The notes beneath the pieces were generated by a model. The model had not been told where the DNA came from and ran no database searches. It saw only the letters and a list, made by a program, of their open reading frames with translations. From Chloroflexota bacterium (GTDB taxonomy: Bacteria > Chloroflexota > Limnocylindria > P2-11E), in assembly GCA_005881885.1 (NCBI GenBank), contig VBDX01000133.1, positions 15,461-79,460 on the forward strand: 64,000 nt of DNA, given 5' to 3'. A program made the position numbers and the translations under genes. Shown piece after piece: positions 26,299 through 63,419 of this stretch. The number at the start of each line of letters is the position of its first letter. Position 1 is the first letter of the stretch.

Positions 26299-26560
26299 CG
26301 CTGTTCTCCTCTCGTCCAAACAAAAAGGCCCTCGTCCTCTTATTTCTGGGACGAGAGCCCTGGCTCCCGCGGTTCCACCCGCATTCCGCCTCGTGGCGGC
26401 ACTCATATCCGCGGTACGGGGCGGACCCACGTCGCTCGGCGGCGGTCTCTCCTATCCATTGACCGGCCGGCTCGCACCTTATCCGGCTCTCTGAACGGCC
26501 CTGCGCTGGAGCGGTGTCCGCGTCGTCGCGAGGCACAGATGATAGCGCGGGATTGAGCCG
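26299..26560 (-). promoter_or_regulatory. T-box riboswitch leader of thrS (T-box motif + intrinsic terminator/antiterminator)
   Basis: On the minus strand: 'GCGGGUGGAACCGCGGGAG' matches the T-box consensus AGGGUGGNACCGCG. It is followed by hairpin GGGCUCUCGUCCC-AGAAAUAAGA-GGACGAGGGCC + UUUUUGUUUGG ending ~25 nt before the thrS ATG. Confidence 0.6.
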
Positions 26561-26580
26561 GCCTTGACGCCGCATTGACG
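26552..26580 (+). promoter_or_regulatory. Triple direct-repeat operator-like element (ATTGAGC-cggc-CTTGACG-ccgc-ATTGACG, 11-bp periodicity), ~50 nt upstream of the Gfo/Idh/MocA-epimerase-flippase genes
   Basis: Seen directly in sequence; one of six copies of the same architecture in this window. Confidence 0.55.
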
Positions 26581-26628
26581 GCGGCTCCCGCGACCGGCCA
26601 CGCTGGTGCGCGACGGTCGCGGCGCCTC

Positions 26629-27795
26629 ATGCCGGGGCACAGCCGGCCTCAATCCACCGGCGATTTCAATAGACGTTCCGTGATCCACTCGGCGGCGCCG
26701 CGGCTCGACATCGCGGTCATCGGTTGCGGCGCGGCGGCCGAGGGCCTCTATCGGTACGCCCTCGGAGCGCTAGAGTCCCGCGGCATCGCTCGCGTCGCAG
26801 CGCTCGTCGACCCCAATCCCGTGCGGACCGCTGCGCTCCAACGACACTTTCGCGCGGCTAGAACCTTTGCCGATCCCGCAGACGCGTTCGCATCGGTAGC
26901 CGTCGACCTGGTGATCGTGGCGTCGCCGCCGGGGATGCACGCGCAGCACACGGTCGACGCCTTGGCCGCCGGCAGCCATGTGCTCTGCGAAAAGCCCATG
27001 GCGATCGGTGCCCCCGATGCCGAGCGGATGGTCGCCGCGGCCCGCGTGGCGCGGCGCATCCTCGCGGTCGGGATGACGCGACGGATGTATCCGTGTCTGG
27101 TCGAAGCGCAGCGACTCATCGCGCAGGGCACGCTCGGTGATCGACTGCGCTTCACGTACCGCGAAGGGCGCGTGTACGACTGGCCCGTCAACAGCGACGC
27201 GGCATTTCGTCGAGCGACGGCCGGGGGCGGCGTCCTCACGGACATCGGTTCGCACGTTCTTGACTTCTTGAGCGCGCTCTTCGGTGCGACGACCGCCACG
27301 AGCTACGCGGATGACGCGCACGCCGATGGCGTCGAGACGAACTGCCGGATCGAGGTCGTCTGCCCTGAGGCGAGCGGCGTCGTGCAGCTGTCCTGGAACC
27401 AGCCGCTCGTGACGAGGCTCCGCATCACGGGCTCGGCCGGAGAGCTAATGCTCGACCCCGGTCGGATCGACGCGCTCCGCGTACGGCGTGGCGGCGGCAC
27501 CTGGGAAACGCGGATCAGCACGGCGACGTGGCCGTCCGACCTCGCGACGCGCGGCCGCGGCGATACCCCGCGGACCCACCGGGACTGCGTCTACCACCAG
27601 CTCGTGCAGGTGTTGAGAGCCGTGACACACGGAGAGGATGTGCCGGTCGATGGCGAGCGGGGCCTCGCCGTCATCCGCGCGATCGATTCCTGCTACGAGC
27701 GCGCGACATCGTTCGAGCTCCCGTGGCTGGACGCGGCCGAGCGGTCGCAGGCCGACGCGCGTCACTGGACCCGGCGGCGATGCGCGGCGGCATAG
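26629..27795 (+). CDS. Gfo/Idh/MocA-family NAD(P)-dependent oxidoreductase (sugar-nucleotide dehydrogenase-like)
   Basis: N-terminal Rossmann 'LDIAVIGCGAAAEG', 'EKP' motif 'LCEKPMA'. Start uncertain (ATG 26629 or GTG ~26671). Confidence 0.8.
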   Translation: MPGHSRPQSTGDFNRRSVIHSAAPRLDIAVIGCGAAAEGLYRYALGALESRGIARVAALVDPNPVRTAALQRHFRAARTFADPADAFASVAVDLVIVASPPGMHAQHTVDALAAGSHVLCEKPMAIGAPDAERMVAAARVARRILAVGMTRRMYPCLVEAQRLIAQGTLGDRLRFTYREGRVYDWPVNSDAAFRRATAGGGVLTDIGSHVLDFLSALFGATTATSYADDAHADGVETNCRIEVVCPEASGVVQLSWNQPLVTRLRITGSAGELMLDPGRIDALRVRRGGGTWETRISTATWPSDLATRGRGDTPRTHRDCVYHQLVQVLRAVTHGEDVPVDGERGLAVIRAIDSCYERATSFELPWLDAAERSQADARHWTRRRCAAA

Positions 27796-31106: not shown

Positions 31107-31129
31107 GCCTTAGCTCCTTAAGTCGCGCG

Positions 31130-31504
31130 CTAGTCCTCTTCCGACGCAGCCCGCAGGTTCACGACGTTCGATGCTTCGAGGTTCTCCATCTTGGAACGGC
31201 CTTCGAAGATGACGCCCTTCTCGACCATGAAAGATGGAGTCGTGATGTCGCCGCGCACCTTCGCCGGCCGATGGAGCTCGACGGCGCCCGTCGCCTTGAT
31301 GTTGCCGACGACCTCTCCCTCGACGATGACGGTGCCGCAGCTGATCTCCGCCGAGACCTTGGCGCCTTCGCCGATGTGCAACGTGTCGTTCGTCGAAATT
31401 TCGCCGGTGAAGTTGCCGTCGATCCGGACCTTGCCCTCAAAGGCAAGCTTGCCCTCGAACTCCGACCCGCGCCCCAGCGACGCATTGAGCTCGCTACCAG
31501 TCAT
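31130..31504 (-). CDS. Bactofilin (polymer-forming cytoskeletal protein, DUF583)
   Basis: 'GKVRIDGNFTGEISTNDTLHIGEGAKVSAEISCGTVIVEGEVVGNIKATGAVELHRPAKVRGDITTPSFMVEKG' beta-helical bactofilin repeats. ATG at 31504 (GGGAGG 7 nt upstream); alternative ATG at 31528. Confidence 0.75.
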   Translation of the reverse strand: MTGSELNASLGRGSEFEGKLAFEGKVRIDGNFTGEISTNDTLHIGEGAKVSAEISCGTVIVEGEVVGNIKATGAVELHRPAKVRGDITTPSFMVEKGVIFEGRSKMENLEASNVVNLRAASEED

Positions 31505-31955
31505 GTAGGCCTCCCGCTGTTGCTGCATGTCTCTTCTTTCCTCCGCTTCTTCAGCCCGCGGCGGCGCGGGGGTGTCTGCCTGCTGGTGCTGGGGCACCTG
31601 CCACGCCGGCTGACGATCCTCGGCTTTGCCGCTTCCTCGCTTGAACGTGGATCGGAACACTACGCTCTCAACGCGACAAGTTCGAGAACGTTGTCGTCGC
31701 AATCCGGTCTGTAACTCTCGCCGATCCGGGCCCCACTCGCGACAAAACCGCGGGACTTCGAAGCTTGGTCGCGCCATCCGCTGGTCCGCATCGGCGGGCG
31801 TCGGCTGCCTTCTCGTACCTCGCCCCTCGAGTGCGTTCATCGTCGGTGGCGGGCGCACCTGCGCACGGGTCGCGTCTCTTGCGGGGCGCGCGGACCGCGG
31901 GCCCGGATGCGATCCGCCCGAAACGGCCGGTCGCTGAATTGGCGCCGTTACGGTC

Positions 31956-50503: not shown

Positions 50504-50532
50504 ATTGAGCGCCGATTGACGGTGCATTGAAG
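50504..50532 (+). promoter_or_regulatory. Triple direct-repeat element ATTGAGC-gccg-ATTGACG-gtgc-ATTGAAG upstream of the sugar-transferase operon
   Basis: Exact 11-bp periodicity; the same heptamer family as at 26552, 53360, 54456 and 61354. Confidence 0.55.
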
Positions 50533-50621
50533 AGCGCCCGCCAGGGCCCGGCCCGACCGTGGGGAGCGTCGGGAAAACGTCATGGTCAGGCCGTACCGAT
50601 CCTCAATGGTGCGGGGCTTCC

Positions 50622-51395
50622 ATGCTCCTCGTGGCAGCGGACCCGATCGCTCTCCAGTCCACGATGCCAGCCCGTGCGGACGGCGCACGGCTTTCCGATT
50701 GGTCGGTTGCGGGAGCGCAGGCCGACGCACCTGCGCTCTCCGCCGTTGCTCAGGCACTCGGGGCGGCGGCCCGTCGCGAGACCTTCTACGCATTCTCCAA
50801 GCGAGCGCTCGACCTGATGATCGCCGCCGTGCTCCTTCTGGGACTCGTGCCGCTTTTCGCGCTGGTCGCTATCGCGATCCGCTTCGACGGACCCGGGCCC
50901 ATCTTCTACCGTGGCGAGCGGCTCGGTCGCTACGGCAGCCGCTTCAGTGTCGTCAAGTTCCGATCGATGCGCGCCGACGCGGATCCGAACTCGCATTGCG
51001 CATTCCTCCGGAGCCTGATGCAGCAGGGCACAACGTGCACCGTTTACAAGGTCCCCGACGATCCCCGGATCACGCGGGTCGGCGCCATCCTTCGCAAGAC
51101 GAGCCTCGACGAGCTGCCGCAGCTCTGGAATGTGCTCCGCGGCGAGATGAGCCTCGTCGGTCCCCGCCCGGACGTCCCTTACGCCGTCGCGGAGTACAGC
51201 GACTGGATCCACCGCCGGCTTCTCGTGAAGCCGGGGATCACGGGCTTGTGGCAGGTCAGCGGTCGCAGCCGCCTGAGTCCCCTCGAGATGTACCGCCTCG
51301 ATGTGGCGTACGTCGCCGCGGCGTCACTGGCGTTCGACCTGCGGATCCTCCTGCGCACCATCCCGGTCGTCCTCACCCGGGACGGAGCGGCCTAG
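50622..51395 (+). CDS. Polyprenyl-phosphate sugar phosphotransferase (bacterial sugar transferase, WbaP/CpsE C-domain type; initiating enzyme)
   Basis: '[18 protein letters not shown] ... [10 protein letters not shown] ... [21 protein letters not shown]'. Start uncertain (ATG 50622 or 50664). Confidence 0.8.
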
Positions 51396-52199: not shown

Positions 52200-53386
52200 C
52201 GGAAGCCGAGCCGCGCATTCTCGTTGTCCTCGGCACCCGGCCCGAAGCGATCAAGCTCGCTCCGGTCATCAACGCTCTGCGCGCGACGCCCGATGCGCTG
52301 AGCGTCGGGGTGTGTGTTACCGGTCAGCATCGCGAGATGTTGACGCCGATCCTCGAGCTCTTCGGGATCGTGCCGGACTACCAGCTCGGCCTCATGACGC
52401 CGAACCAAAAGCTAGCGCGGCTCACGTCGGCGATCCTCGACGAGATCACGCCGGTCCTCGATGCCTTCCGTCCCGATTGGGTCATCGTCCAGGGTGATAC
52501 GACGACAGCTCTTGCCGCATGCCTCGCCTCGTTCTACCAAGGCGTTCGCGTGGCTCACGTGGAGGCCGGCCTGCGCACGAACGACAAGCGCCGACCTTTC
52601 CCCGAGGAGGCGAATCGCCGCATCGTCGATACGCTCTCCGACCTGCACTTCGCTCCCACCGAACGCGCCCGGCGGAGCCTCCTCGCGGAAGGGACCAACC
52701 CAGCGACCGTGCACGTGACCGGCAACACGGTCATCGACGCGCTCTGCCAGACCAGCGCGCGCGAGTACGACGTCGGGTCCGGTCCTCTCGCCGGGGTCCC
52801 CTTCGATCGGCGCATCGTCCTGGTCACCGCTCATCGACGGGAGAGCTTCGGCCAGGGCATGATCGCGATCTGCCGCGCCCTCGCGCGGCTCGTCGACGAG
52901 GTGCCGGACGTTCAGGTCGTGTATCCCGTGCATCTCAATCCGAACGTGCGTGACCCGGTGCGAGAGCGACTGGGCGGCGATCCACGGATCAGTCTTCTCC
53001 CGCCACTCGACTATCAGGCGCTCGTTCATTTGATGCGCCGGGCCACGCTGATCCTGACCGACTCAGGGGGCATCCAGGAAGAGGCGCCGACCCTAGGAAA
53101 GCCGGTGCTCGTCCTCCGCGAGGTGACCGAAAGGCCGGAAGCGATCGAAGCCGGTTGCGCCCGACTCGTCGGCACCGACGCGAGCCGCATCGTGAGCGAG
53201 GCGCGACGGCTTCTCCAAGACCGTGGCGCCTACGACCGGATGGCGCGAGTCGTGAATCCATTCGGCGACGGCCGCGCGAGCGAACGCATCGTCGCTGTGC
53301 TGCGGTCGGCCGATGTCGCCGCTCGCTCGGCGGCACGGGAGACTACCTCGCGGCAAGGGATTGAGGCCGCCTTGACGCCGAATTGA
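52196..53386 (+). CDS. wecB: UDP-N-acetylglucosamine 2-epimerase (non-hydrolysing)
   Basis: 'RILVVLGTRPEAIKLAPV ... VHVEAGLRT ... PEEANRR ... VTGNTVIDAL'. GTG at 52196 overlaps the methyltransferase TGA (GTGA); ATG 52172 is an alternative. Confidence 0.85.
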   Translation: MTEAEPRILVVLGTRPEAIKLAPVINALRATPDALSVGVCVTGQHREMLTPILELFGIVPDYQLGLMTPNQKLARLTSAILDEITPVLDAFRPDWVIVQGDTTTALAACLASFYQGVRVAHVEAGLRTNDKRRPFPEEANRRIVDTLSDLHFAPTERARRSLLAEGTNPATVHVTGNTVIDALCQTSAREYDVGSGPLAGVPFDRRIVLVTAHRRESFGQGMIAICRALARLVDEVPDVQVVYPVHLNPNVRDPVRERLGGDPRISLLPPLDYQALVHLMRRATLILTDSGGIQEEAPTLGKPVLVLREVTERPEAIEAGCARLVGTDASRIVSEARRLLQDRGAYDRMARVVNPFGDGRASERIVAVLRSADVAARSAARETTSRQGIEAALTPN

Positions 53387-53388
53387 AG
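53360..53388 (+). promoter_or_regulatory. Triple direct-repeat element ATTGAGG-ccgc-CTTGACG-ccga-ATTGAAG upstream of secreted-protein paralog A (overlaps the last codons of wecB)
   Basis: Exact 11-bp periodicity. Confidence 0.55.
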
Positions 53389-53529
53389 ACTCGCAGCGCC
53401 GCCAGCGCGGTCGGAAGACCCCGGCCGCAAGAAGTAACGCCGTGCCTCAGCGCTCCTCAACGCCCCGGCTTTGTCATCAGACGCGACGGCCAGGGTGCCG
53501 GTATTTGCCGTTGGAACGAGGAGATCTGA

Positions 53530-54441
53530 ATGAAGACTTCGCTGCTGCGCCGCCTTAGTCCGTTCGCAATCGTCGCGGTCGTCCTGCTCCAGCTAACCGT
53601 TGGTGCGCGACCCGCCGCCGCGGCGCCAGGTGCCGTGATCGCCGACGTCGTCGTGCCCTTCGGAGACGATGGAACGCTCTGGCCCGTGGGCATCTCATCC
53701 AGCGTCGCCTTTGACGGAAAGTATCTCTACTACGCCGAGTACAGCGGTCCGATCCTGCATCGCATCGACGTGCCCCCGGCGGGCGGGCCGACCCCGGCGA
53801 CGAACAAGATAGACATGCCGATCGTCGGGATGCACGCCGGAGCGATGTCGCTCGCCTACGACCGCGGCCGCGACATGTTCTGGGCGATCGGTGGCGACGG
53901 ACTCTCGGTCTATCTCCTCAGCAAGACCGGCATCGCAACGCTCATGTTCACGATCAACGCGGCGACCGACCGCCCCGGCTATCAGCCCACGACCTACGCG
54001 ACAGAGACCAAGCTCGCATACGACCGGTCCGACGACACGATCTGGTACGCGCCGGACGCCAATTCGCGCATCTTCCACTACCGGGCGTTTGGGGACACTC
54101 TCGGCTTCGCCCAGCTCGTCGCCGGGTCGCCATTCTTGGACGTCAGCGTGCCGCCGAACGACATGACACCGCAGTGCGGATACAGCATCGTGAGCGGGGT
54201 CGCGGTCGGTGGTCGCGACCTCTTCCTGGACATCGCGGGCTGTCCCTACTACTTCGAATATTCCAAGACCGGGACGAAGATCGGTTGGTTCCCTCTCGCG
54301 GGCACCGCCGCTGGCGACGTGGAATGCGACAACGTGAGCTACGGCGTGTCCGTGCTGTGGGTGAAGGACGCGTGGGCCGGTCACTTCCGGGCGTACGAGC
54401 AGCCCTCGGCGGGCGCGTGTGCCTTCGGCGGCGGGCTCTGA
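53530..54441 (+). CDS. Secreted protein of unknown function, beta-propeller-like (paralog A)
   Basis: Signal peptide, strong GGAGA RBS. Recurrent blade-like units 'VAFDGKYLYY', 'LAYDRGRDMFWA', 'KLAYDRSDDTIWY', 'DANSRIFHY'. 60-70% identical in blocks to the gene at 61470. Confidence 0.6.
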   Translation: MKTSLLRRLSPFAIVAVVLLQLTVGARPAAAAPGAVIADVVVPFGDDGTLWPVGISSSVAFDGKYLYYAEYSGPILHRIDVPPAGGPTPATNKIDMPIVGMHAGAMSLAYDRGRDMFWAIGGDGLSVYLLSKTGIATLMFTINAATDRPGYQPTTYATETKLAYDRSDDTIWYAPDANSRIFHYRAFGDTLGFAQLVAGSPFLDVSVPPNDMTPQCGYSIVSGVAVGGRDLFLDIAGCPYYFEYSKTGTKIGWFPLAGTAAGDVECDNVSYGVSVLWVKDAWAGHFRAYEQPSAGACAFGGGL

Positions 54442-54455
54442 CCCGCCCTTCGCGC

Positions 54456-54484
54456 ATTGAGCGCTCGTTGACGCTGGGTTGACC
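54456..54484 (+). promoter_or_regulatory. Triple direct-repeat element ATTGAGC-gctc-GTTGACG-ctgg-GTTGACC upstream of the 979-aa secreted protein
   Basis: Exact 11-bp periodicity. It overlaps the TTG used as the ORF start in the track, which argues for a later true start. Confidence 0.55.
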
Positions 54485-54580
54485 GGAATGGGCAAAGAGC
54501 GGCGCTATCGCGAGGCGCGTTCCGAAAGGTCATGCCGTCGCCGCAGCGCTCCTCAATCCGCGACGTGTTTGATCCCACCC

Positions 54581-57418
54581 GTGCGCGGAGATCTCCGGCA
54601 TCGGCTCGCGCTGATCCTCGTCACGGCGATGGTCGGTGTATACCTCTACGCCGCGGAGCCGTCACCGGCGACGACGGCCCTTGGCGCCGACAATCCGATC
54701 GTCGTTGAGAACCAGTTCCCGGGATCGAACGCGTGGCTTCCGGGATCGTCCATCGCCGACGATGCGGCCGGACAGATCAAGGGCTACGCCTCGGCGACCA
54801 GCGTCGCTCAGGGACAGAGCATCAGCCTGTTCGTCACGGTCAGCCCGGCCCAGACCTACACGATCGACTTCTACCGGCTCGGCTACTACGCCGGCGCCGG
54901 TGGCCGGCTTCGTCTGCAGACCGGCCCGCTCAACGGCGTCACGCAGGCCCCGTGCGGTGCGGACTCGACCACGGGCCTCATCGAGTGCAACTGGCCGCCG
55001 AGCTACACGCTGACCATCCCGAGCGATTGGACGAGCGGCGTCTACATCGTCAAGCTGACGAACTCCCTCGGATATCAGAACTACGTCATGTTCGTCGTCA
55101 AAGACGGGCGCCCGGCGCCGTACCTCTACCAGCAGGCCGTCCTCACCGACCAGGCCTACAACAACTACCCGAACAATCACGTGACCGGGAAGAGCCTCTA
55201 CAGCTTCAATAGCTACGGGCCGAACACGGTCGCCGGCGAAACGCGGGCGGTCAAAGTCTCGTTCGATCGTCCCTACGCGGACTACGGCTTTCCAGAGGTG
55301 GATGCCATCGAGTTCATCCGCTGGATCGAGCGTTCTGGTTACGACGTCACGTACTCGACGAATGTCGACACGCATGCGAATGGTTCAGCCCTCCTGACTC
55401 ACAAGGCCTTCATGTCGATCGGCCACGACGAGTACTGGTCGAAGCCGATGTTCGACGCGGTCCAGGCCGCCCGCGACGCGGGGGTTGGTCTGGCGTTCTT
55501 CGGAGCGGACGCGGTCAGCGTGCAGGTGCGAATCGAGTCTGCGACCGACGGCGAACCTAACCGCGTGGTGGTCTGCTACAAGAGCGCGGCCCTCGACCCG
55601 GTGCAGGGTCCGACGACCACGGTCGCGTGGCGCAGCGCACCGGTGAATCGTCCCGAACAGGCACTCCGGGGGATCCAGGACACCTTCCACGCGATCGTGA
55701 ACTCGAACGTGGATTACGTGGTCAACAACAGCTCTCACTGGATCTATGCCGGGACCGGCTTCAAGGACAACGATGTGGTGCCGGGGATCGTCGGCTACGA
55801 GAGCGACCGCTTCATGACCGGGTTCCCCGCTCCGAACTCGACGAACCAAACGCTCTTGTCGCATTCGCCGTTCACCAACAACGAGGGCGGCGCCGAGTAC
55901 CAGAACTCCTCCATCTACCAGGCCCCGAGCGGCGCATGGGTCTTCTCGTCCGGCACGATGTCGTGGAGCTGGGGCCTGGACAGCTTCTGGCACGGACGCG
56001 CAGACGCCCGGATCCAGCTAACGACGACCAACCTCCTCAACGCGTTCACCGCCGCTCCCGCCCCCACACCCACTCCGACGCCAACACCTACTCCAACCCC
56101 GACACCTACTCCCACGCCGACGCCTACTCCGACACCGACGCCAACTCCGACGCCAACTCCGACGCCGACACCTACCCCGACGCCGACACCTACTCCCACA
56201 CCGACGCCACCACCGAGCGGCGTCCACGATCTTCGGGTGACGGCCGCGGCGACCACGACTGCGGGCCAGTCCTTCACCGTCGGTGTGACCGCCGAGGACG
56301 CGCTGGGCAGCCCGGTCACGTCTTACAGCGGCACCGTTCACTTCGCCAGCAGCGACACGTCGTCGGGGGTCGTGCTGCCAGCCGACTCGACCTTGACGAA
56401 CGGTCAGGGCACCTTCTCGCTGACCCTGACCAAGGCCGGATCGCAAACGGTCACCGTTTCCGACGCCGCGAACGCGCTCACCACGACCGCGACAATGGGC
56501 GTCACTGCCGCGGCGGCCAACAGTCTCGCGCTCGCCACCGCGGCCAGCCCGAAGGCCGGGACGCCCTTCCAGTTCACCGTGACCGCGAAGGACTCGTTCG
56601 GCAACACCGACACGTCCTACGCCGGGACGGTGCACTTCACGAGCAGCGATAGCGCGAGCGGCGTGTCGCTTCCGGCTGACGGCAGCCTGACGAACGGTCA
56701 GCAGACCTTCTCGGCGACGCTGGTCACGCTCGGCTCGCAGACCATCACGGCCACCGGCGCGACGATCACCGGAACGCTTTCGGTCACCGTCAGCCCGGGG
56801 AACGCGTCGAAGCTCGTGCTTGCCACCAGCGGCACTCCGACCGCCGGTACGGCTTTCCAGTTCACCGTGACCGCGCAGGACCCCTTTGGTAACACGGCCA
56901 CGTCCTACACCGGGACGGTGCACTTCACGAGCAGCGACACGTCCTCGGGCGTCGTGCTCCCGGCCGACTCGACCTTGACGAACGGCCAGCGGACGTTCTC
57001 GGCGACGCTCATCAGGGCCGGTGCCCAGACGATCACCGCGACGGACAAAGTCACCTCGAGCATCACCGGGAACCTCAATGTCTCGGTGCGGCCCGGCGCC
57101 GCCGCGGTCGTCATCGTCGCGGCGCCAGCGACCGTCGTGGCGGGCCAGTCCTTCAACTTCACGGTCACGCTGAAGGACGGCTTCGGGAACGCGGCGACCG
57201 GCTACACCGGGACGATGCACTTCACGACCAACGACATCTCGCCGCTCGTCGTGTTGCCAGCGGACTACGCCTTCAATGGCGGCGACGCCGGAGCGCACAC
57301 CTTCTCGGCGACCCTCTGGACGCCGCCGAGCCGGCCGATCACCGCGACGGACACCGTAAACGCGAGCCTCACCGGCACGGCGGCGGTAGGAGTGACGCTG
57401 GTGCCACCGCTCCCGTAG
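54581..57418 (+). CDS. Large secreted protein: N-terminal ~500-aa domain (possibly N,N-dimethylformamidase-large-subunit-like), (PT)n linker, and four tandem ~95-aa bacterial Ig-like (Big-type) repeats
   Basis: Likely GTG start at ~54581 giving the signal peptide 'RGDLRHRLALILVTAMVGVYLYAA'. Repeats of 'GTPFQFTVTAKDSFGNTDTSYAGTVHFTSSD ... LTNGQ.TFSATL'. The family assignment of the N-domain is from memory only. Confidence 0.6.
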   Translation: MRGDLRHRLALILVTAMVGVYLYAAEPSPATTALGADNPIVVENQFPGSNAWLPGSSIADDAAGQIKGYASATSVAQGQSISLFVTVSPAQTYTIDFYRLGYYAGAGGRLRLQTGPLNGVTQAPCGADSTTGLIECNWPPSYTLTIPSDWTSGVYIVKLTNSLGYQNYVMFVVKDGRPAPYLYQQAVLTDQAYNNYPNNHVTGKSLYSFNSYGPNTVAGETRAVKVSFDRPYADYGFPEVDAIEFIRWIERSGYDVTYSTNVDTHANGSALLTHKAFMSIGHDEYWSKPMFDAVQAARDAGVGLAFFGADAVSVQVRIESATDGEPNRVVVCYKSAALDPVQGPTTTVAWRSAPVNRPEQALRGIQDTFHAIVNSNVDYVVNNSSHWIYAGTGFKDNDVVPGIVGYESDRFMTGFPAPNSTNQTLLSHSPFTNNEGGAEYQNSSIYQAPSGAWVFSSGTMSWSWGLDSFWHGRADARIQLTTTNLLNAFTAAPAPTPTPTPTPTPTPTPTPTPTPTPTPTPTPTPTPTPTPTPTPTPTPTPTPPPSGVHDLRVTAAATTTAGQSFTVGVTAEDALGSPVTSYSGTVHFASSDTSSGVVLPADSTLTNGQGTFSLTLTKAGSQTVTVSDAANALTTTATMGVTAAAANSLALATAASPKAGTPFQFTVTAKDSFGNTDTSYAGTVHFTSSDSASGVSLPADGSLTNGQQTFSATLVTLGSQTITATGATITGTLSVTVSPGNASKLVLATSGTPTAGTAFQFTVTAQDPFGNTATSYTGTVHFTSSDTSSGVVLPADSTLTNGQRTFSATLIRAGAQTITATDKVTSSITGNLNVSVRPGAAAVVIVAAPATVVAGQSFNFTVTLKDGFGNAATGYTGTMHFTTNDISPLVVLPADYAFNGGDAGAHTFSATLWTPPSRPITATDTVNASLTGTAAVGVTLVPPLP
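56060..56215 (+). repeat. Hexanucleotide tandem repeat (ccgacg/ccaacg/cctact units) encoding a (Pro-Thr)n linker
   Basis: ~26 consecutive PT dipeptides. Similar DNA repeats recur at 62405-62700, 59690-59770, 33290-33460/33780-34000 and 10720-10830. Confidence 0.7.
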
Positions 57419-57596
57419 GGCGGCGAGCACAGCCAGGCACGCTCGGAATGAAGCCTGAGTGAGAGGACGCCGACGAGTTCAGCGGCCCAGAGCCAGCGCC
57501 TGGCTGGAAGCTCGCCTTGTTCTCCGGGTAGAGCGTATCGACGATCCCCTCACTTTGGCCCTCGGCCGAACGCCTGTATCCTTGGCTCTACGCGGG

Positions 57597-58334
57597 GTGG
57601 GTGCTGCCGAGAACGATGCCGGTCAGCGCGTCGGGATCCTCGTTGTCGATGACGACCGGGAGCTCGTCGACCTTCTTGCCTTCCTTATGGAGCAATCCGG
57701 GCTGACCCCGCTCTGCGCGACCGAACCCGTCGCCGCGCTCGAGCTCTTCGACAAGGAAGACCCGTACGTGGCGGTCGTCGATCTCAACCTCAAGCCGTGG
57801 GATGGCTTCGAGCTGCTTGCGGAGCTCCGCCGGCGCAGCGCGCGGATCCCGATCCTCGTCCTCACCGGGCGCGGCAGCGAGGACGACAAGGTGCGAGCGC
57901 TCGACATGGGCGCGGATGACTACGTCGTCAAGCCTTTCTTGCACCGCGAGCTTGTGGCCCGGATCCGAGCGCTTGCACGGCGCGCGCAGATGGACCGCAA
58001 TGTCATCGAGCCGACCATCCTGGAGGCGGGTCCGCTCCGCCTCGACCTCAAAGAGCGTGGGCTCCAGATCGACGGAGCCGACGTCCGCCTCACCGGGACC
58101 GAGTTCCGGCTCCTGGAATACCTGATGCGCCACCTCGACAGCGTCGTCTCCACGACCTCGCTGGCGCGGCACGTGTGGGGCTATGACGACCCCCCGGCGC
58201 GTGACGTGGTGCGAGTGACGGTGCACCGGCTGCGCCGCAAGCTTGGCGACGATGGCGAGAGCCCGCGTTTCGTCCACACCGTTCCGGGCGTCGGACTCAA
58301 GCTTCGGTCCACACCGTCTCAACGGGCGAGCTAG
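57597..58334 (+). CDS. OmpR/PhoB-family response regulator (receiver + winged-helix)
   Basis: 'GILVVDDDREL ... VVDLNLKPWDGFELL ... YVVKPF' receiver domain, then an OmpR-type wHTH. GTG start ~57597; the track ORF (57459) has a GC-rich extension. Confidence 0.8.
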   Translation: MGAAENDAGQRVGILVVDDDRELVDLLAFLMEQSGLTPLCATEPVAALELFDKEDPYVAVVDLNLKPWDGFELLAELRRRSARIPILVLTGRGSEDDKVRALDMGADDYVVKPFLHRELVARIRALARRAQMDRNVIEPTILEAGPLRLDLKERGLQIDGADVRLTGTEFRLLEYLMRHLDSVVSTTSLARHVWGYDDPPARDVVRVTVHRLRRKLGDDGESPRFVHTVPGVGLKLRSTPSQRAS

Positions 58335-58468
58335 CCCCCGCTGTAACGGCATTGTGTCGGCTGCCGGGCCGGTGTAACGCCTTTGTTCCCTAACGCTTAA
58401 CGCATCGAGGCATCCCATTTGCGGTTTCTACAGGCCGTGGCTCGGTGAGCCGCGACTCGCATGGGGGT

Positions 58469-59281
58469 ATGGATTTCATGATCAAGATCCTGCTGGTCGA
58501 AGACGATCTCGACATGCTCGACCTGACCGCGTATGTCCTTCGGAGAGAGCGATTCGTCGTGATGGAGGCCTCGGACGGCGCAGCGGCCCTGCGGCGATGG
58601 AGAGCCGACCGTCCGGACCTCGTCGTCCTCGACCTTGGTCTGCCGAGCCTCGATGGGTTCGAGGTCCTGCGTCGCATCCGTGCCGACGACGAGACGCCGA
58701 TACTCGTCCTCACCGGTCGGCGCGACGCCCAGGACATTTTGCGGGTCTTCAACCTGGGATCCGATGACTTCCTCGCCAAGCCGTTCGAGTTCAAGGAGCT
58801 CATCGCACGGATTCGCGCGATCCTGCGCCGCGTCCAAACATCCCCGAAGGAGAACACCGAGCCCCGCGTCGAAGTCGACGGGCTCAAGCTCGACCCCGAG
58901 GCATACGAGGTGGCGTGGAGAGATGCCTACGTCCGACTCACGCCCACCGAGTTCCGCATCCTCTACCTCCTCGTGACGAATGCCGGACACGTGGTCTCCG
59001 CCAATCGCCTCTACACGTACGTGTGGGGCAGCGAAGGCGGCGACGCGAACGCGTTGCGATCGCACATCAGCCACCTGCGGCGAAAGCTCGAGACGACGGG
59101 GGAAACGCCGGGCACGATCTCGTCGGTGCCGGCGATCGGCTACGTCTACCGCAAAGTCGCGCAGCCCGCGACCGTCCCGGTGGAGACGACCGCGATCGCA
59201 CCATCGGCACCGAGTTCGAAAGACGACCGGGTCCCGACCCCTACGGCGACGGCGCAGGTCGCTCCCGCGGCATCCGGCTAG
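58469..59281 (+). CDS. OmpR/PhoB-family response regulator (second, adjacent)
   Basis: 'KILLVEDDLDML ... LVVLDLGLPSLDGFEVL ... FLAKPF' receiver + wHTH, with a C-terminal Pro/Thr/Ala tail. No histidine kinase nearby. Confidence 0.8.
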   Translation: MDFMIKILLVEDDLDMLDLTAYVLRRERFVVMEASDGAAALRRWRADRPDLVVLDLGLPSLDGFEVLRRIRADDETPILVLTGRRDAQDILRVFNLGSDDFLAKPFEFKELIARIRAILRRVQTSPKENTEPRVEVDGLKLDPEAYEVAWRDAYVRLTPTEFRILYLLVTNAGHVVSANRLYTYVWGSEGGDANALRSHISHLRRKLETTGETPGTISSVPAIGYVYRKVAQPATVPVETTAIAPSAPSSKDDRVPTPTATAQVAPAASG

Positions 59282-59431
59282 CGGGCGCGGTCGAGCGCCG
59301 CGAGCGGCGGGAAGGCGAGGTCGGTTCACGACGACGCGCTTCCCGGCCCGGCAGCAGCCTCGAGTCAGGAGAACACGCGGTGGGCCGTGTGAAGGGAAAC
59401 GAAAGCGAGAGCCCGGCCCTCGCCCTTTCCG

Positions 59432-59505
59432 TGGGCTCTGCGTGGCTCGAACACGCGACCTCAGCGATGTCAACGCTGCGCTCTAACCAGCTGAGCTAAG
59501 AGCCC
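59432..59505 (-). tRNA. tRNA-Val (anticodon GAC), 74 nt, CCA not encoded
   Basis: Minus-strand sequence GGGCUCU-UA-GCUC-AGCUGGUUA-GAGC-G-CAGCG-UUGACAU-CGCUG-AGGUC-GCGUG-UUCGAGC-CACGC-AGAGCCC-A folds as a canonical cloverleaf with anticodon GAC. Confidence 0.85.
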
Positions 59506-59571
59506 GAGAACCAAAGTCTACTTCAAAGATCGTCTTCTGATCCCGGCCAGTAACGGGCGCGCGCCGGCCCG

Positions 59572-60198
59572 ATGTTTGAATCGCGCCACATGCGTCATCT
59601 CGCCGCAGGCATCGCGCTAACGATCGCTCTCACGGCTTGCGGATCGAGTACGGCGTCCGTGCCACAACCCGTGCCGACCCCCGCGGCGCCGACCGTCACC
59701 CCGTACCAGACGATGACGCCGACTCCGATCCCGCCGACACCGGCTCCGACGCCGACACCGACGCCAGGCCCCACGCTCTCCTCGGTGGCGGCCGAAAAGT
59801 ACTTCCATCCGCTCGCGGGGTACGAGCTCGTCGTCCCGCCCCCAGAAGTCGCGACGCAGCTGCAGGCCCTCGTCTCGGCCCCCGAGGTGACCGACATCGC
59901 CACCGGCGTTGCGCTGCGCTTGGTGACCCGGAACGGCGATGCAGCGAACATGGCCGTCCTCAGCCTCTCGCTGCTGCCGTCGTACGCTGCGCTCCCCGGA
60001 GTCCTCGACGAATTCGCCGCGAGCTACTCGCAGGCCGCGGTCGAGCGCTTCACACTCGCCGGCCATCCGGCGCTCTACTACCAGACCGCCCCGAAGAGCC
60101 TCGTGTGGGCCCACCGCACGTACATCCTCGTGGTCTACGGCACCGACCGAGCGGCGATGACCCGGTTGGGCGAAGCACTCATCGCATCGAACCCGTAG
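59572..60198 (+). CDS. Lipoprotein of unknown function with a Pro/Thr-rich linker
   Basis: Lipobox 'LTACGSS', then '[34 protein letters not shown]', then a ~130-aa domain. Confidence 0.5.
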   Translation: MFESRHMRHLAAGIALTIALTACGSSTASVPQPVPTPAAPTVTPYQTMTPTPIPPTPAPTPTPTPGPTLSSVAAEKYFHPLAGYELVVPPPEVATQLQALVSAPEVTDIATGVALRLVTRNGDAANMAVLSLSLLPSYAALPGVLDEFAASYSQAAVERFTLAGHPALYYQTAPKSLVWAHRTYILVVYGTDRAAMTRLGEALIASNP

Positions 60199-61288
60199 CG
60201 CTGGTCGCGCCGAACATCCGCAGGCTCTCCGTCGGAGCATCCTTCGCGAAACACACCACCCTGAACGCGCCCAACCCATTCGGATCGAGCAACGCGTCGA
60301 TCGCCGAGCGCCGGCTCGCCGCGCGCAGTTGCTCGATCGGGATCGACGGTCGCGCCGTGGCCTCGCGGATGCCGAGCGCGAGCAACACCTCGCGCTGCAT
60401 CGCGGATCCCGCGAAGCGAAGTCCCGCGCCTTCCGCGGCACGGCGGATCGCCGTGAAGTCAACGCTCGCGGTCAGGTCGTGGCGGCCAGGCTCGGCCAGC
60501 GGATCGGAGATGAGGCGATGACCAGCGAACCCGCGGATCGTGCCCGCGCCGTCGCGCGTCAGGAGATCGGTCTCCTCGCCACCGTAGTCGACGAAGACGA
60601 CGTAGCCCGACACCAGGGCGCCCGCGAGGCTTGCGACCCAGCCTTCAGCCGCGGGGCTGGTCTCCCACCGGCCGCCGAGGGGCACGGATTCGGGGACACG
60701 CCAGCGCAGATCCTGGCTGGGCACGCGTAAGACCTCCACGAGCGCCCCGCTCTGTTCGCCGACGAAGACCTCGCGCACACCCTCGGGCGTTCTGATCAAG
60801 ACGTGGACCGGAAACGCGTCGAGGACCTCATTCGCGAACAGGACGCCCTTGATGGGCGCGAGGCTGTGAGCGACGGACGCCCATCGCAGGTCACGCCCCT
60901 CGAGCGCGAGCGATTGCTGCCCGCGCATGCGCGGCGAGACCTCGACGATCGCGGGCCGCACCCCTCGAACGGCGTCGGATCGTTCGCGCTCCAGCGCGGA
61001 GAGCAGATCGCGCATGAGGATGCCGCGTCCCGCACCTGCTTCGACGAGATCCCAGACCGCCGGCCGTCCCATGTGCGACCAGAGATCAGAGACGCCGCGC
61101 GCCAGCGATTTCCCGAACGCTGGGCCCAGGTCCGCCGAGGTGACGTAATCGCCGTCGAATCCGATCGACGCCCGAGTCGTGTAGTAACCATCCTCCGGGT
61201 CGTAGAGGGCCGCCTCCATGTAGTCGGCGAATGTGATCGCTCCACCCGAGCGAATCCGCGCGACGATCCGATCGCCGAGCTTCCCCAC
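60179..61288 (-). CDS. MidA/NDUFAF7-like class I SAM-dependent methyltransferase (DUF185)
   Basis: 'EAGAGRGILMRDLL' SAM motif and 'FANEVLDAFPVH' typical of MidA. Confidence 0.65.
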   Translation of the reverse strand: MGKLGDRIVARIRSGGAITFADYMEAALYDPEDGYYTTRASIGFDGDYVTSADLGPAFGKSLARGVSDLWSHMGRPAVWDLVEAGAGRGILMRDLLSALERERSDAVRGVRPAIVEVSPRMRGQQSLALEGRDLRWASVAHSLAPIKGVLFANEVLDAFPVHVLIRTPEGVREVFVGEQSGALVEVLRVPSQDLRWRVPESVPLGGRWETSPAAEGWVASLAGALVSGYVVFVDYGGEETDLLTRDGAGTIRGFAGHRLISDPLAEPGRHDLTASVDFTAIRRAAEGAGLRFAGSAMQREVLLALGIREATARPSIPIEQLRAASRRSAIDALLDPNGLGAFRVVCFAKDAPTESLRMFGATSATGSMR

Positions 61289-61353
61289 GCGGTCGAGGGT
61301 ATATGGCAGCTAAAGGCGGCGCGGGATCCGTAAAGATCCGGTAACGCTCATGG

Positions 61354-61382
61354 ATTGAGCATCCGTTGACGTCGAGTTGACG
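61354..61382 (+). promoter_or_regulatory. Triple direct-repeat element ATTGAGC-atcc-GTTGACG-tcga-GTTGACG upstream of secreted-protein paralog B
   Basis: Exact 11-bp periodicity; GTAACGC lies 13 nt upstream. Confidence 0.55.
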
Positions 61383-61469
61383 CTCGTGACGTCGGGGTGC
61401 TCTCTAATGCGAAAAGCCGCTCAAAACGTATGCGGGCGGCGCAACGCCGCTCAACCCGGGTCCGCTCGA

Positions 61470-62711
61470 ATGACTGAGGTGCAGCCGACAAGGGACCGCC
61501 ACGCCCGCCGAATCGGATTCATTCCGATCATGGCGCTGGTCCTGATGCAGCTCGCGGTGTTCGGCGCGCGGCCCGCAGCCGCCACCGGTGGCGATCTCAT
61601 CGCCGACGTCATGGTGAACGAGCCGTACCCAGACTACGTCGCTCCGAGCGTCGCATTCGACGGGCGGTACCTGTACCACACCGGGTACGGCACATCAGTC
61701 CTCCATCGGATCAACGTGCCGCCGAGGGGGACTTCCGGCAACGGGACGGGCCAGGTCGACGTCCCGATCACCGGCGCGTCCTCGGGGATCATGACGCTCG
61801 CCTATGATGCCGGCCGCGACGCCTTCTGGGCCGTAAGCGGCGACGGGCTATCCATCTACATGCTGAGCAAGACCGGTGCGGCCACGCTTGCCTTCCGGAT
61901 CGATCCGAACACTGACAGGCCCGGCTATCAGCCTGTCGGCAACTACCCGAACGAAGTCAAGCTCGCGTACGACCGCGCCGACGACACCATCTGGTACAGC
62001 AACGACGCTAACTCGCGCATCTTCCATTACCAGACGTTCGCCGAGGCAGACGGGACCGCGGCCCTCGTCCCAGGGACGCCATACATCGACATCAACGTCC
62101 CGCCGAACTCGATGGATGCGGAGTGTGGCTATAGCCAGAGCAGCGGCGTGACCGTGGGAGGAGCCCACATCTTCATCACGGTCGCCGGCTGCAACTACCT
62201 GTTCGAGTTCACGAAGACCGGCGGCAAGGTGGCCTCGTACGCCTACCACCCGTATCCCGGAACGGGGCCCCAAGATCTCGAGTGCGACAACCTGAGCTAT
62301 GGCGTAGCCGTTTTCTGGATCCGCGACACGTATGACGGCCACATCCGCGCGTTCGAACAGCCCACATCGACATCCTGTCTCTACGGCGGTGGCACCGCCG
62401 CACGTCCGACCCCCACTCCCACGCCGACGCCTACTCCTACACCCACGCCGACCCCGACTCCGACACCCACACCAACGCCAACGCCTACCCCGACCCCCCC
62501 AACACCAACGCCAACGCCTACCCCGACCCCCACGCCGACCCCGACGCCCGCACCAACACCGACGCCAACACCGACGCCAACACCGACGCCGACGCCAACC
62601 CCAACCCCGACTCCTACGCCAACACCGACGCCGACGCTGCCACTTCCGACCCTTCCGCCGCTTCCGACGCCCCCGTTGCCTACGCTCCCGCCGCCACCTC
62701 CGTTGCCCTAA
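61470..62711 (+). CDS. Secreted beta-propeller-like protein (paralog B of 53530..54441) with a ~100-aa C-terminal (PT)n/proline-rich tail
   Basis: '[11 protein letters not shown]', '[12 protein letters not shown]', '[13 protein letters not shown]', 'DANSRIFHY', '[16 protein letters not shown]' colinear with paralog A. Tail '[11 protein letters not shown]...[19 protein letters not shown]'. Confidence 0.6.
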
Positions 62712-62729: not shown

Positions 62730-63419
62730 TTACACGACGAGCATCTCGCGTAAGCGTTCGATTTCGGCGCGCAGCACGCCGATCCGCTCCAGATATGCAG
62801 CCGCGTCAGCGTGCTCCGCGCGCACGGCCGTCAGCAGCTGGCCAATGACCCACGCACGCCGGGCCTGGCGCTCCGCCATGTCGGCGGCGACTTCCGGGTG
62901 TTCCGATCTGAAGCGCGCGTACTCGTCGGCGAGCTCGACGTCGCTCGCGCAGTAGTCGGCGACGATGTCGTCGTGGGCGACCTCGAGCGCGGCGAGCAGC
63001 AGCGCCACGACGATCCCGGTTCGGTCCCGCCCGGCCTGGCAATGGACGACGACCGCCGGATCCGCGCTCGCGATCGCGGCGAGTGCCGCTCGCAGCCCGC
63101 TCCCCGGCCGCGCGAGATCGACGAGCTGTTGCGCCATCGTTCCGGCGATCGCATGTTCGTGCAGCTTCAGGGTGTGCTCGCCGTCGACACGGACGTTCCG
63201 GTACGCGAGGCCCAGCCCGAACGGGTTTGGCAGCGCCGTCACCTCATCCGGCCCACGCAGGTCGATAACGGTCTTGACGCCGTGAGCGCGGATGGCGACC
63301 GACCCTGCCGGCGTGAGCGATCCCAAGGTCGATGCGCGCACGAGGGCCCCGCTCCTGATCACGCCGCCAGCGCAGCGAAGGCCACCGAGATCGCGCACGT
63401 TGAGGTACGCGTCCCACAT
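62730..63419 (-). CDS. Protein tyrosine/dual-specificity phosphatase (CX5R active site)
   Basis: 'VVHCQAGRDRTGIVVALLL' P-loop. Confidence 0.7.
   Translation of the reverse strand: MWDAYLNVRDLGGLRCAGGVIRSGALVRASTLGSLTPAGSVAIRAHGVKTVIDLRGPDEVTALPNPFGLGLAYRNVRVDGEHTLKLHEHAIAGTMAQQLVDLARPGSGLRAALAAIASADPAVVVHCQAGRDRTGIVVALLLAALEVAHDDIVADYCASDVELADEYARFRSEHPEVAADMAERQARRAWVIGQLLTAVRAEHADAAAYLERIGVLRAEIERLREMLVV

What the first reader, a model, noticed from the sequence alone, without database searches (positions are those of the whole stretch)
57597..59281. Tandem orphan OmpR-family response regulators with no histidine kinase in the neighbourhood
Two complete receiver + winged-helix regulators sit back-to-back. 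Both have phospho-acceptor Asp (VVDLNL / LVVLDLGLP) and conserved Lys (KPF) intact. They lie between the co-regulated secreted-protein genes, with no sensor kinase within at least 20 kb on either side.

They are the obvious candidates to read the 11-bp-phased direct repeats. Two paralogous regulators on one motif could allow heterodimeric or antagonistic control.
Basis: partly seen in the sequence, partly recalled or inferred. Interest (0 to 1): 0.6.

Follow-up and report, generated by a model that had tools for sequence, protein, structure and literature searches.

The report
Conserved kinase-less pair of response regulators
Two ordinary-looking OmpR/PhoB-type response regulators with no sensor kinase nearby form a conserved gene pair in soil Limnocylindria (Chloroflexota). 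They sit inside a cell-surface sugar and secreted-protein gene cluster whose promoters all carry the same repeat-rich 125-bp element, so they are probably the cluster's local switches.

Summary
RR1 (57597-58334) and RR2 (58478-59281) are complete receiver plus winged-helix regulators. Every phosphorylation-site residue is intact here and in all orthologues.

No histidine kinase lies in the 57 kb upstream or in about 14 kb downstream. The downstream stretch was reached only through overlapping metagenome contigs, because the window holds just 4.7 kb. Among 54 unrelated OmpR-type loci, 48 have a kinase within 500 bp.

The RR1-RR2 pair is conserved as a unit in at least five Limnocylindria species and is duplicated as a unit in one.

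The "11-bp repeats" are real: 5 exact sites against 0 expected. They are only the distal part of a fixed ~125-bp promoter element:
- ATTGAG/TTGACG/TTGAA, three units in 11-bp phase
- about 45 bp of variable sequence
- GTCATG...CCGCAGCGCTCCTCAATCC
- TTnnAT, then 7 nt to a leaderless GTG/ATG

A motif-only metagenome scan found true elements only in homologous clusters.

A second repeat class, TGTAAC-N5-TGT twice, always follows RR1-type genes and precedes RR2. This hints at a cascade from RR1 to RR2 to the cluster promoters.

Binding, phosphorylation and the kinase are all inferred. The regulators are new members of a known kind. Interest is moderate.

The parts
57597..58334 (+). RR1: OmpR/PhoB-family response regulator, 245 aa, GTG start
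   Evidence: Pfam finds Response_reg and Trans_reg_C. The exact product is on 24+ contigs. The best solved relative is RegX3, 2oqr, 1.6e-43, aligned over the full length. The catalytic residues are invariant in the orthologues.
58478..59281 (+). RR2: OmpR/PhoB-family response regulator, 267 aa from ATG 58478 (also called from GTG 58445 as 278 aa), with a ~40-aa low-complexity C-terminal tail
   Evidence: Pfam hits. Products on record. The best solved relative is M. tuberculosis PhoP, 3r0j/5ed4, 2.7e-47.
57574..57582 (+). CTGTATCCT, a conserved -10-like word (TATCCT/TATGCT) about 14 nt upstream of the RR1 start
   Evidence: Conserved upstream of RR1 in L008, L009, L010, L012 (both pairs), L150 and L155. 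Its function is inferred.
58342..58389 (+). Two TGTAAC-N5-TGTnnC boxes (58342-58358 and 58373-58389), 31 bp apart, in the RR1-RR2 spacer. This is a candidate OmpR-type operator in front of RR2.
   Evidence: 2 matches in the window against 0.03 expected. In the 14 loci scanned for this motif it occurs only immediately after RR1-type genes, including the distant L013.
26552..26682 (+). Composite promoter element 1, in front of the GFO/IDH/MocA-epimerase-flippase operon (GTG 26680)
50504..50633 (+). Composite promoter element 2, in front of the priming sugar transferase Bac_transf (GTG 50631)
   Evidence: The position is conserved in L008, L009, L010 and L012 and in nine metagenome loci.
53360..53477 (+). 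Composite promoter element 3, in front of the 303-aa secreted-protein paralogue. Here a ~50-nt leader with a Shine-Dalgarno sequence precedes ATG 53530.
54456..54583 (+). Composite promoter element 4, in front of the DMFA2_C / PT-linker / Ig-repeat secreted protein (GTG 54581)
61354..61481 (+). Composite promoter element 5, in front of the PT-rich secreted protein (GTG 61479)

Best explanation
RR1 and RR2 are canonical, phosphorylation-competent OmpR/PhoB-type transcription factors whose kinase or kinases are encoded elsewhere in the genome. They are the dedicated local regulators of the surrounding ~35-kb cluster for a Wzx/Wzy-type surface glycan and several secreted proteins.

SHOWN
- Domain architecture and intact catalytic residues.
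- Absence of a kinase from -57 kb to +14 kb, and in every orthologous locus examined.
- Conservation, and in one species duplication, of the pair as a unit across Limnocylindria.
- Five copies in the window of a ~125-bp fixed-architecture element, found elsewhere only in homologous clusters.
- A second repeat class tied to RR1-type genes.

INFERRED
- The 11-bp-phased TTGA units are OmpR-type binding sites. This applies to the distal array ATTGAG/TTGACG/TTGAA and to its mirror on the bottom strand next to the -10-like hexamer.
- Binding there recruits RNA polymerase to promoters that have no -35 consensus and start leaderless mRNAs 7 nt after a TTnnAT hexamer.
- The most likely wiring is a cascade. 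A remote kinase phosphorylates RR1. RR1 acts on the two TGTAAC-N5-TGT boxes to set RR2 expression. RR2 occupies the ATTGAG-type arrays at the structural promoters. RR2 may itself be phosphorylated by the same or another kinase.
For: - Family and residues.
- No kinase: Pfam on all long ORFs. A kinase HMM on all six-frame ORFs of the window and of L001-L012 and L088-L093 found none, while it did find the kinases of L013, L042 and L043, which Pfam confirmed. None was found in 85.5 kb of further element-bearing loci.
- Baseline: 48 of 54 unrelated OmpR-type loci have a kinase within 500 bp.
- Pair conserved in L008-L012, L149-L151 and L155. Two pairs are present in L012/L151.
- Motif statistics: 5 exact sites against 0.00 expected. 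PWM scores of 32-45 bits occur only in pair-bearing Limnocylindria loci, with a maximum of 13 bits in about 1.2 Mb of control loci.
- A motif-only metagenome scan recovered 17 true elements. All lie in homologous clusters, with the pair present wherever the contig is long enough.
- Leaderless geometry: 23 of 27 distinct elements have ATG/GTG 6-9 nt after the hexamer, 17 of them at exactly 7 nt.
- No other DNA-binding domain was found in the cluster.
- Cascade hint: the TGTAAC boxes follow the RR1-like gene even in L013, which has an adjacent kinase, no RR2 and no ATTGAG element.
- Arrays of two, three or more 11-nt units, including opposed arrays, are documented for Streptomyces PhoP and GlnR (PMC3561978).
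Against: - No binding, phosphorylation or expression data exist. The link between the regulators and the element is guilt by association.
- The recognition helices of RR1 and RR2 cannot be matched to either repeat class from sequence alone.
- The cascade rests on a single out-group locus (L013).
- L011 keeps the pair but has only a diverged element.
- The -10-like hexamer TTnnAT lacks the usual A at position 2, whereas RR1's own promoter has TATCCT. An alternative sigma factor encoded elsewhere could therefore be the real reader of the proximal block.
- Whole genomes were not available, so sites outside the cluster cannot be excluded.
Confidence: 0.5

Rival explanations
1. Hetero-oligomer model. 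RR1 and RR2 bind together, each reading its own unit type within one array, so that the cluster integrates two inputs at each promoter.
For: - Unit identity is position-specific and conserved: unit 1 is ATTGAG, unit 2 TTGACG, unit 3 TTGAA/C. The order is mirrored in the proximal block, ATTGAG...TGACG on the bottom strand.
- The two recognition helices differ and each is conserved within its group.
- The pair is inherited and duplicated as a unit.
- Response-regulator heteromers are documented: BldM-WhiI (PMC4125116), CmrR-CmrT (PMC12548384) and CenR-EssR (PMC10592609).
Against: - All units share one TTGA core, which a single protein could read.
- A separate repeat class in front of RR2 already gives the second regulator something to bind.
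Confidence: 0.15
2. The 125-bp element is read by something else, such as an alternative sigma factor or a regulator encoded outside the cluster. The two regulators would then control only their own expression or unrelated genes.
For: - The best-conserved block, CCGCAGCGCTCCTCAATCC, covers the -35 and spacer region.
- The hexamer TTnnAT is not sigma-70-like, and no sigma-70 consensus promoter was found.
- No ATTGAG array scoring at or above the PWM cut-off precedes RR1 or RR2.
Against: - No sigma factor or other regulator gene lies in the cluster.
- The element was found only in clusters that also carry the pair.
- The strict 11-bp phasing of short direct repeats is the hallmark of OmpR-family sites (PMC3561978).
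Confidence: 0.2
3. The regulators are phosphorylation-independent, atypical orphans like ChxR, HP1043 or GlnR, and need no kinase at all.
For: No kinase lies in any of the loci examined. Orphan OmpR-family regulators that act without phosphorylation exist (PMC3960148, PMC5253667).
Against: The acidic pair, the phospho-acceptor Asp, the Thr, the Tyr/Phe switch residue and the Lys are invariant in all RR1 and RR2 orthologues down to 60% identity. Documented atypical receivers such as CmrT are missing conserved active-site residues (PMC12548384).
Confidence: 0.1
4. The element is a structured leader RNA, such as a riboswitch or attenuator. ATTGAG would pair with CTCAAT and TGACG with CGTCA.
For: The two complementary word pairs are nested and lie at fixed distances.
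Against: - RNAalifold finds no consensus structure and no covariation. The paired words are simply conserved.
- No Rfam family matches, even in E-value mode.
- Start codons sit 7 nt after a promoter-like hexamer at the 3' end of the element, so the element lies upstream of the transcript.
Confidence: 0.03

Closest known systems
M. tuberculosis RegX3 (PDB 2OQR) and PhoP (PDB 3R0J, 5ED4)
   Same: These are the best solved relatives of RR1 and RR2, aligned over the full length. They share the receiver plus winged-helix architecture and the same catalytic residues.
   Different: From my own knowledge, each has an adjacent cognate kinase, SenX3 or PhoR. Here there is none. NCBIfam scores are far below every named equivalog cut-off, so neither RR1 nor RR2 is an orthologue of a named regulator.
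Streptomyces coelicolor PhoP and GlnR operators made of 11-nt direct repeat units (PMC3561978)
   Same: Operators are arrays of two, three or more 11-nt units, with one monomer bound per unit. Opposed arrays on the two strands have been seen. GlnR is an orphan.
   Different: The unit sequence differs: TTGA(C/G) here against GTTCACC-type units (the latter from my own knowledge). Here two convergent arrays sit at a fixed distance of about 96-98 bp within a leaderless promoter. Binding is not shown here.
Clostridioides difficile CmrR/CmrT (PMC12548384)
   Same: Two OmpR-family regulators are encoded together and control cell-surface and colony phenotypes. They may form heterodimers.
   Different: The cmrRST locus encodes the whole system, which from my own knowledge includes the kinase CmrS. 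CmrT is a pseudo-receiver. Here both receivers are typical and no kinase is linked.
Brucella CenR with EssR-EssS (PMC10592609)
   Same: A regulator encoded apart from the EssR-EssS pair cooperates with a second regulator at shared sites to control cell-envelope genes.
   Different: The genes are not adjacent and the EssS kinase is known. Whether RR1 and RR2 interact is untested.
Atypical orphans ChxR (PMC3960148) and HP1043 (PMC5253667)
   Same: They are OmpR-family regulators with no partner kinase that bind direct repeats.
   Different: ChxR acts without phosphorylation. RR1 and RR2 keep every catalytic residue.

Membership tests
OmpR/PhoB family response regulator | N-terminal receiver (REC) domain | tested here: met
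   PF00072 scores 1.9e-24 in RR1 and 2.7e-29 in RR2, with the full profile covered.
OmpR/PhoB family response regulator | C-terminal winged-helix Trans_reg_C domain | tested here: met
   PF00486 scores 9.5e-24 in RR1 and 1.7e-20 in RR2. Both align over the full length to RegX3 and PhoP.
OmpR/PhoB family response regulator | Catalytic set: acidic pair, phospho-acceptor Asp, Thr/Ser, aromatic switch residue, Lys | tested here: met
   RR1 has DDD / vvDlnl / lvlTg / ddY / vKPF. RR2 has EDD / vlDlgl / lvlTg / ddF / aKPF. All are aligned to solved relatives and invariant in the orthologues.
OmpR/PhoB family response regulator | Phosphorylation-dependent dimerisation and binding to direct repeats | not testable with these tools
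   Only candidate sites were found.
Classical two-component system (linked kinase-regulator pair) | Histidine kinase gene adjacent to or in an operon with the regulator | tested here: not met
   No kinase from -57 kb to +14 kb or in any orthologous locus. In the control set, 48 of 54 unrelated loci have one within 500 bp.
Atypical or pseudo-receiver orphan regulators (ChxR, HP1043, GlnR, CmrT type) | Loss of one or more conserved phosphorylation-site residues | tested here: not met
   All residues are present and conserved.
Named regulator orthologue groups (MtrA, PhoB, RpaB, WalR/YycF, OmpR, and others) | NCBIfam equivalog score at or above the curated cut-off | tested here: not met
   The best hit is MtrA, at 170.5 bits for RR1 and 174.4 bits for RR2 against a cut-off of 300. 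PhoB scores 163 against 296.
PHO-box-type operator (arrays of 11-nt direct repeat units) | Two or more conserved short units in strict 11-bp register upstream of regulated genes | tested here: met
   Three units in 11-bp register occur at 5 window sites against 0 expected. They are conserved across species.
PHO-box-type operator (arrays of 11-nt direct repeat units) | Occupancy by the cognate regulator | not testable with these tools

The most novel reading that the evidence does not exclude
The conserved kinase-less RR1-RR2 pair works as a hetero-oligomer, or as an obligate two-tier module, on a previously undescribed operator. Two convergent three-unit arrays with position-specific unit identities lie about 96-98 bp apart. 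Between them they would wrap or loop roughly 45 bp of DNA to fire leaderless promoters that lack a -35 element. This would be a promoter architecture specific to the surface-glycan cluster of the uncultured class Limnocylindria.
Probability: 0.15. Interest if true: 0.65.

Novelty: new member of a known kind. Interest (0 to 1): 0.4.

Why it matters
Limnocylindria are abundant in soil, have no cultured representative, and nothing is known about how they regulate genes. This locus offers a compact regulon that can be tested directly:
- two regulators
- two classes of candidate operator
- five target promoters with a precisely defined geometry
- apparently leaderless transcripts

If the regulators are confirmed as the readers, the locus would give the first regulator-operator pairs for this class. 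It would also give a handle on how these bacteria control their cell-surface glycan and secreted proteins. It would add a natural case of paired OmpR-type regulators detached from their kinase. The regulators themselves are ordinary, and kinase-less regulators are common.

Tried and rejected
- RR2 look-up from ATG 58469 gave nothing. Starts 58478 and 58445 are the ones on record.
- An apparent RR2 disruption in L002/L091 is a scaffold gap of Ns, not biology.
- The structured-RNA reading was rejected. There is no consensus fold or covariation, no Rfam family at gathering or E-value thresholds, and the element lies upstream of the leaderless start codons.
- A sigma-70 consensus scan of 53300-61600 found nothing.
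- GTAACG as a general cluster motif was dropped. The scattered copies belong to different features: the RR2 boxes, one variant proximal block at 53433, and others.
- I searched for the missing kinase using the kinase next to the RR1-like gene of L013 as query. It returned only generic kinase-core hits, 43-51% identity over about 60-70% of the query, apart from one truncated near-identical (98%) copy of the query itself. No identifiable Limnocylindria orthologue emerged, so this was a dead end.
- About 63 of the 80 loci from the metagenome motif scan are low-GC chance matches that lack the downstream blocks.
- The terminator-like hairpin between RR1 and RR2 (58352-58377) is not above chance: 2 found against 3.7 expected.
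- Downstream walking beyond about +14 kb was not possible, because proteins from fetched loci cannot be looked up.

Full report
**What is at the coordinates**

The window is about 68% G+C. Two ORFs lie on the + strand at 57459-58334 and 58445-59281. Each carries a full Response_reg domain and a full Trans_reg_C domain.

The 245-aa RR1 product starting at GTG 57597 is recorded unchanged on at least 24 metagenome contigs. RR2 is recorded as 267 aa from ATG 58478 and as 278 aa from GTG 58445.

The genes are in tandem, head to tail, about 110-145 bp apart. They are about 38% identical to each other.

The best solved relatives are M. tuberculosis RegX3 and PrrA for RR1, and M. tuberculosis PhoP for RR2. 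All align over the full length. The acidic pair, the phospho-acceptor Asp, the Thr and the Lys are in register.

Neither protein reaches the curated cut-off of any named NCBIfam equivalog. The best is MtrA at about 170 bits against a cut-off of 300. They are generic OmpR/PhoB-family members, not orthologues of a named regulator.

**Is there really no kinase?**

- Pfam on every long ORF of the window found no HisKA or HATPase_c domain.
- I built a kinase-core HMM from 35 kinases that sit next to unrelated regulators in fetched loci. I ran it without filters on all six-frame ORFs of 60 aa or more.
- It found the kinases beside three more distant regulator homologues (L013, L042, L043), which Pfam later confirmed.
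- It found nothing in the window or in any locus carrying the pair.
- The window holds only 4.7 kb downstream of RR2. Overlapping contigs L088-L090 and L093 add about 10 kb, carrying NADH-dehydrogenase-like subunits, flotillin, NfeD, an inositol phosphatase and PhoD. They carry no kinase.
- The statement therefore holds for -57 kb to +14 kb, not for 20 kb on both sides.
- As a baseline, 48 of 54 unrelated OmpR-type loci with enough flank have a kinase within 500 bp.

**Source and conservation**

The closest genome records are Candidatus Limnocylindria (Chloroflexota) MAGs. The identical sequence comes from soil metagenomes.

The RR1-RR2 pair, in that order, is present in:
- L008, at 88% and 85% identity for RR1 and RR2
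- L009, at 73% and 76%
- L010, at 67% and 77%
- L011, at 60% and 72%
- L012, which carries two pairs
- metagenome loci L149, L150, L151 and L155

All catalytic residues are invariant in both orthologue groups. The recognition helices differ between the groups, VVRVTVHRLRRKL in RR1 against ALRSHISHLRRKL in RR2, and each is conserved within its group.

An apparent RR2 disruption in one contig is a run of Ns.

**Neighbourhood**

From about 26.5 kb to 63 kb the window encodes a Wzx/Wzy-type glycan pathway: oxidoreductase, epimerases, flippase, GT1/GT2/GT4/GT-C transferases, a Wzy_C protein, a deacetylase, FemAB-like and ATP-grasp enzymes, the priming transferase Bac_transf, and UDP-GlcNAc 2-epimerase.

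It also encodes secreted proteins: a GH5 protein, a DMFA2_C/PT-linker/Ig-repeat protein, and two paralogous proteins of 303 and about 410 aa.

RR1 and RR2 are the only recognisable DNA-binding proteins in this stretch.

**The 11-bp repeats**

The pattern ATTGAG-N6-TTGACG-N5-TTGA occurs five times in the window, always on the + strand, against 0.00 expected. The sites are at 26552, 50504, 53360, 54456 and 61354. Each lies in front of a + strand gene or operon of the cluster.

A PWM built from these sites scores 32-45 bits only in Limnocylindria loci that carry the pair. It scores at most 13 bits in about 1.2 Mb of control loci.

Aligning the sites showed that the repeats are only the distal part of a ~125-bp element of fixed length:
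- three units in 11-bp register
- about 45 bp of variable sequence
- aaCGTCATG
- N5, then gcCGCAgCGctcCTCAAtcC
- 8 nt, then TTnnAT

In 23 of 27 distinct elements an ATG or GTG that opens the long ORF lies 6-9 nt after this hexamer, and in 17 it lies exactly 7 nt after. The hexamer therefore behaves as the -10 box of a leaderless promoter, with no -35 consensus.

Read on the bottom strand, the proximal block is ATTGAG / cTGCGg / aTGACG in roughly 11-bp phase. This is a mirror of the distal array.

A structured-RNA reading was rejected.

**Independent test of the association**

A scan of the metagenome collection with the motif alone returned 80 loci. About 63 are low-GC chance hits without the proximal blocks.

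The remaining 17 are true elements in 14 high-GC loci. All lie in homologous clusters: nine in front of Bac_transf, the others in front of the epimerase, DMFA2 or the secreted paralogues.

The regulator pair is present whenever the contig is long enough, and no kinase is present in these loci.

**A second operator class**

The RR1-RR2 spacer holds two TGTAAC-N5-TGTnnC boxes 31 bp apart, at 58342-58358 and 58373-58389. That is 2 matches against 0.03 expected. They are conserved in every pair-bearing locus examined.

In the 14 loci scanned for this motif, it occurs only immediately after RR1-type genes.

That includes L013, a distant Chloroflexota genome. There the RR1-like gene (51% identity) has an adjacent kinase and no RR2 or ATTGAG element is found. 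The boxes precede a cNMP-binding protein, a Wzz/BY-kinase, Bac_transf and UDP-glucose dehydrogenase.

This ties the RR1 lineage to the TGTAAC boxes and to polysaccharide loci. By elimination, it ties RR2 to the ATTGAG element.

**Interpretation**

The best-supported reading is that the two proteins are phosphorylation-dependent local regulators of the cluster, with a remote kinase. They are probably wired as a cascade: RR1 acts on the TGTAAC boxes and so on RR2 expression, and RR2 acts on the ATTGAG arrays at the leaderless cluster promoters.

Arrays of two, three or more 11-nt units, and opposed arrays, are established for Streptomyces PhoP and GlnR (PMC3561978).

It gains a little from the position-specific unit identities. 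Precedents exist in CmrR/CmrT (PMC12548384), CenR/EssR (PMC10592609) and BldM/WhiI (PMC4125116).

An unlinked sigma factor or regulator could instead read the proximal block.

All binding and phosphorylation steps are inference. The attempt to find the missing kinase by homology failed.

**Verdict**

The orphan status is a conserved feature of the pair. The regulators themselves are ordinary members of a very large family.

What is worth following up is the compact regulon around them: two operator classes, five fixed-geometry leaderless promoters, and one conserved regulator pair in an uncultured soil lineage.

Noticed in passing
window 59431-59505 (- strand): A tRNA-Val(GAC) gene lies between RR2 and the next + strand gene. 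A terminator-like hairpin follows it at 59402-59426.
   Followed up: partly
window 26552-26682, 50504-50633, 54456-54583, 61354-61481: Four of the five cluster promoters appear to make leaderless mRNAs, with GTG 7-9 nt after a TTnnAT hexamer. RR1's own upstream region instead has a conventional TATCCT word. The two promoter types may use different recognition.
   Followed up: partly
window 59150-59281; RR2 orthologues in L008-L012, L150, L151: RR2 carries a variable-length, low-complexity C-terminal tail of 20-60 aa after the winged helix. The tail ends in small residues (..AASG, ..GSAA, ..PSS). RR1 has no such tail. Its function is unknown.
   Followed up: no
L012 3494-5077 and 7854-9485 (same arrangement in L151): One species carries two complete RR1-RR2 pairs about 3 kb apart, flanking Bac_transf and a methyltransferase. 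The pair was therefore duplicated as a unit.
   Followed up: partly
L010 8335-9054: An extra RR2-like gene (about 70% identity) sits directly after an unannotated ORF. It has no TGTAAC boxes in front of it and lies just upstream of a composite element at 9053.
   Followed up: no
L013 8436-15185: In a distant Chloroflexota genome the RR1-like gene has an adjacent histidine kinase. After two TGTAAC boxes come a cNMP-binding protein, a Wzz/BY-kinase, Bac_transf and UDP-glucose dehydrogenase. This may be the ancestral, kinase-linked arrangement.
   Followed up: partly
window 62730-63419 (- strand): A Y_phosphatase3 tyrosine phosphatase lies at the edge of the cluster, but Pfam found no Wzz/BY-kinase anywhere in the window.
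   Followed up: no
window 53530-54441 and 61479-62711: The 303-aa protein and the PT-rich secreted protein are paralogues, about 54% identical over about 300 aa. They have no Pfam family, and each has its own composite element. Long (PT)n linkers occur in this protein and in the DMFA2_C protein (54581-57418).
   Followed up: partly
window 30390-32191 (- strand): A pentapeptide-repeat protein and a bactofilin gene lie inside the glycan cluster, next to the GH5 secreted protein.
   Followed up: no
L002 about 11545-11640: A run of N, which is a scaffold gap flanked by a short duplicated stretch, made gene callers miss RR2 on this contig. This is an assembly artefact.
   Followed up: yes
L011 1046; L012 1233; L110 6382: Diverged or truncated versions of the element exist. 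In them the proximal block is kept and the distal array is degenerate or shortened. The proximal half is therefore the more constant part.
   Followed up: partly
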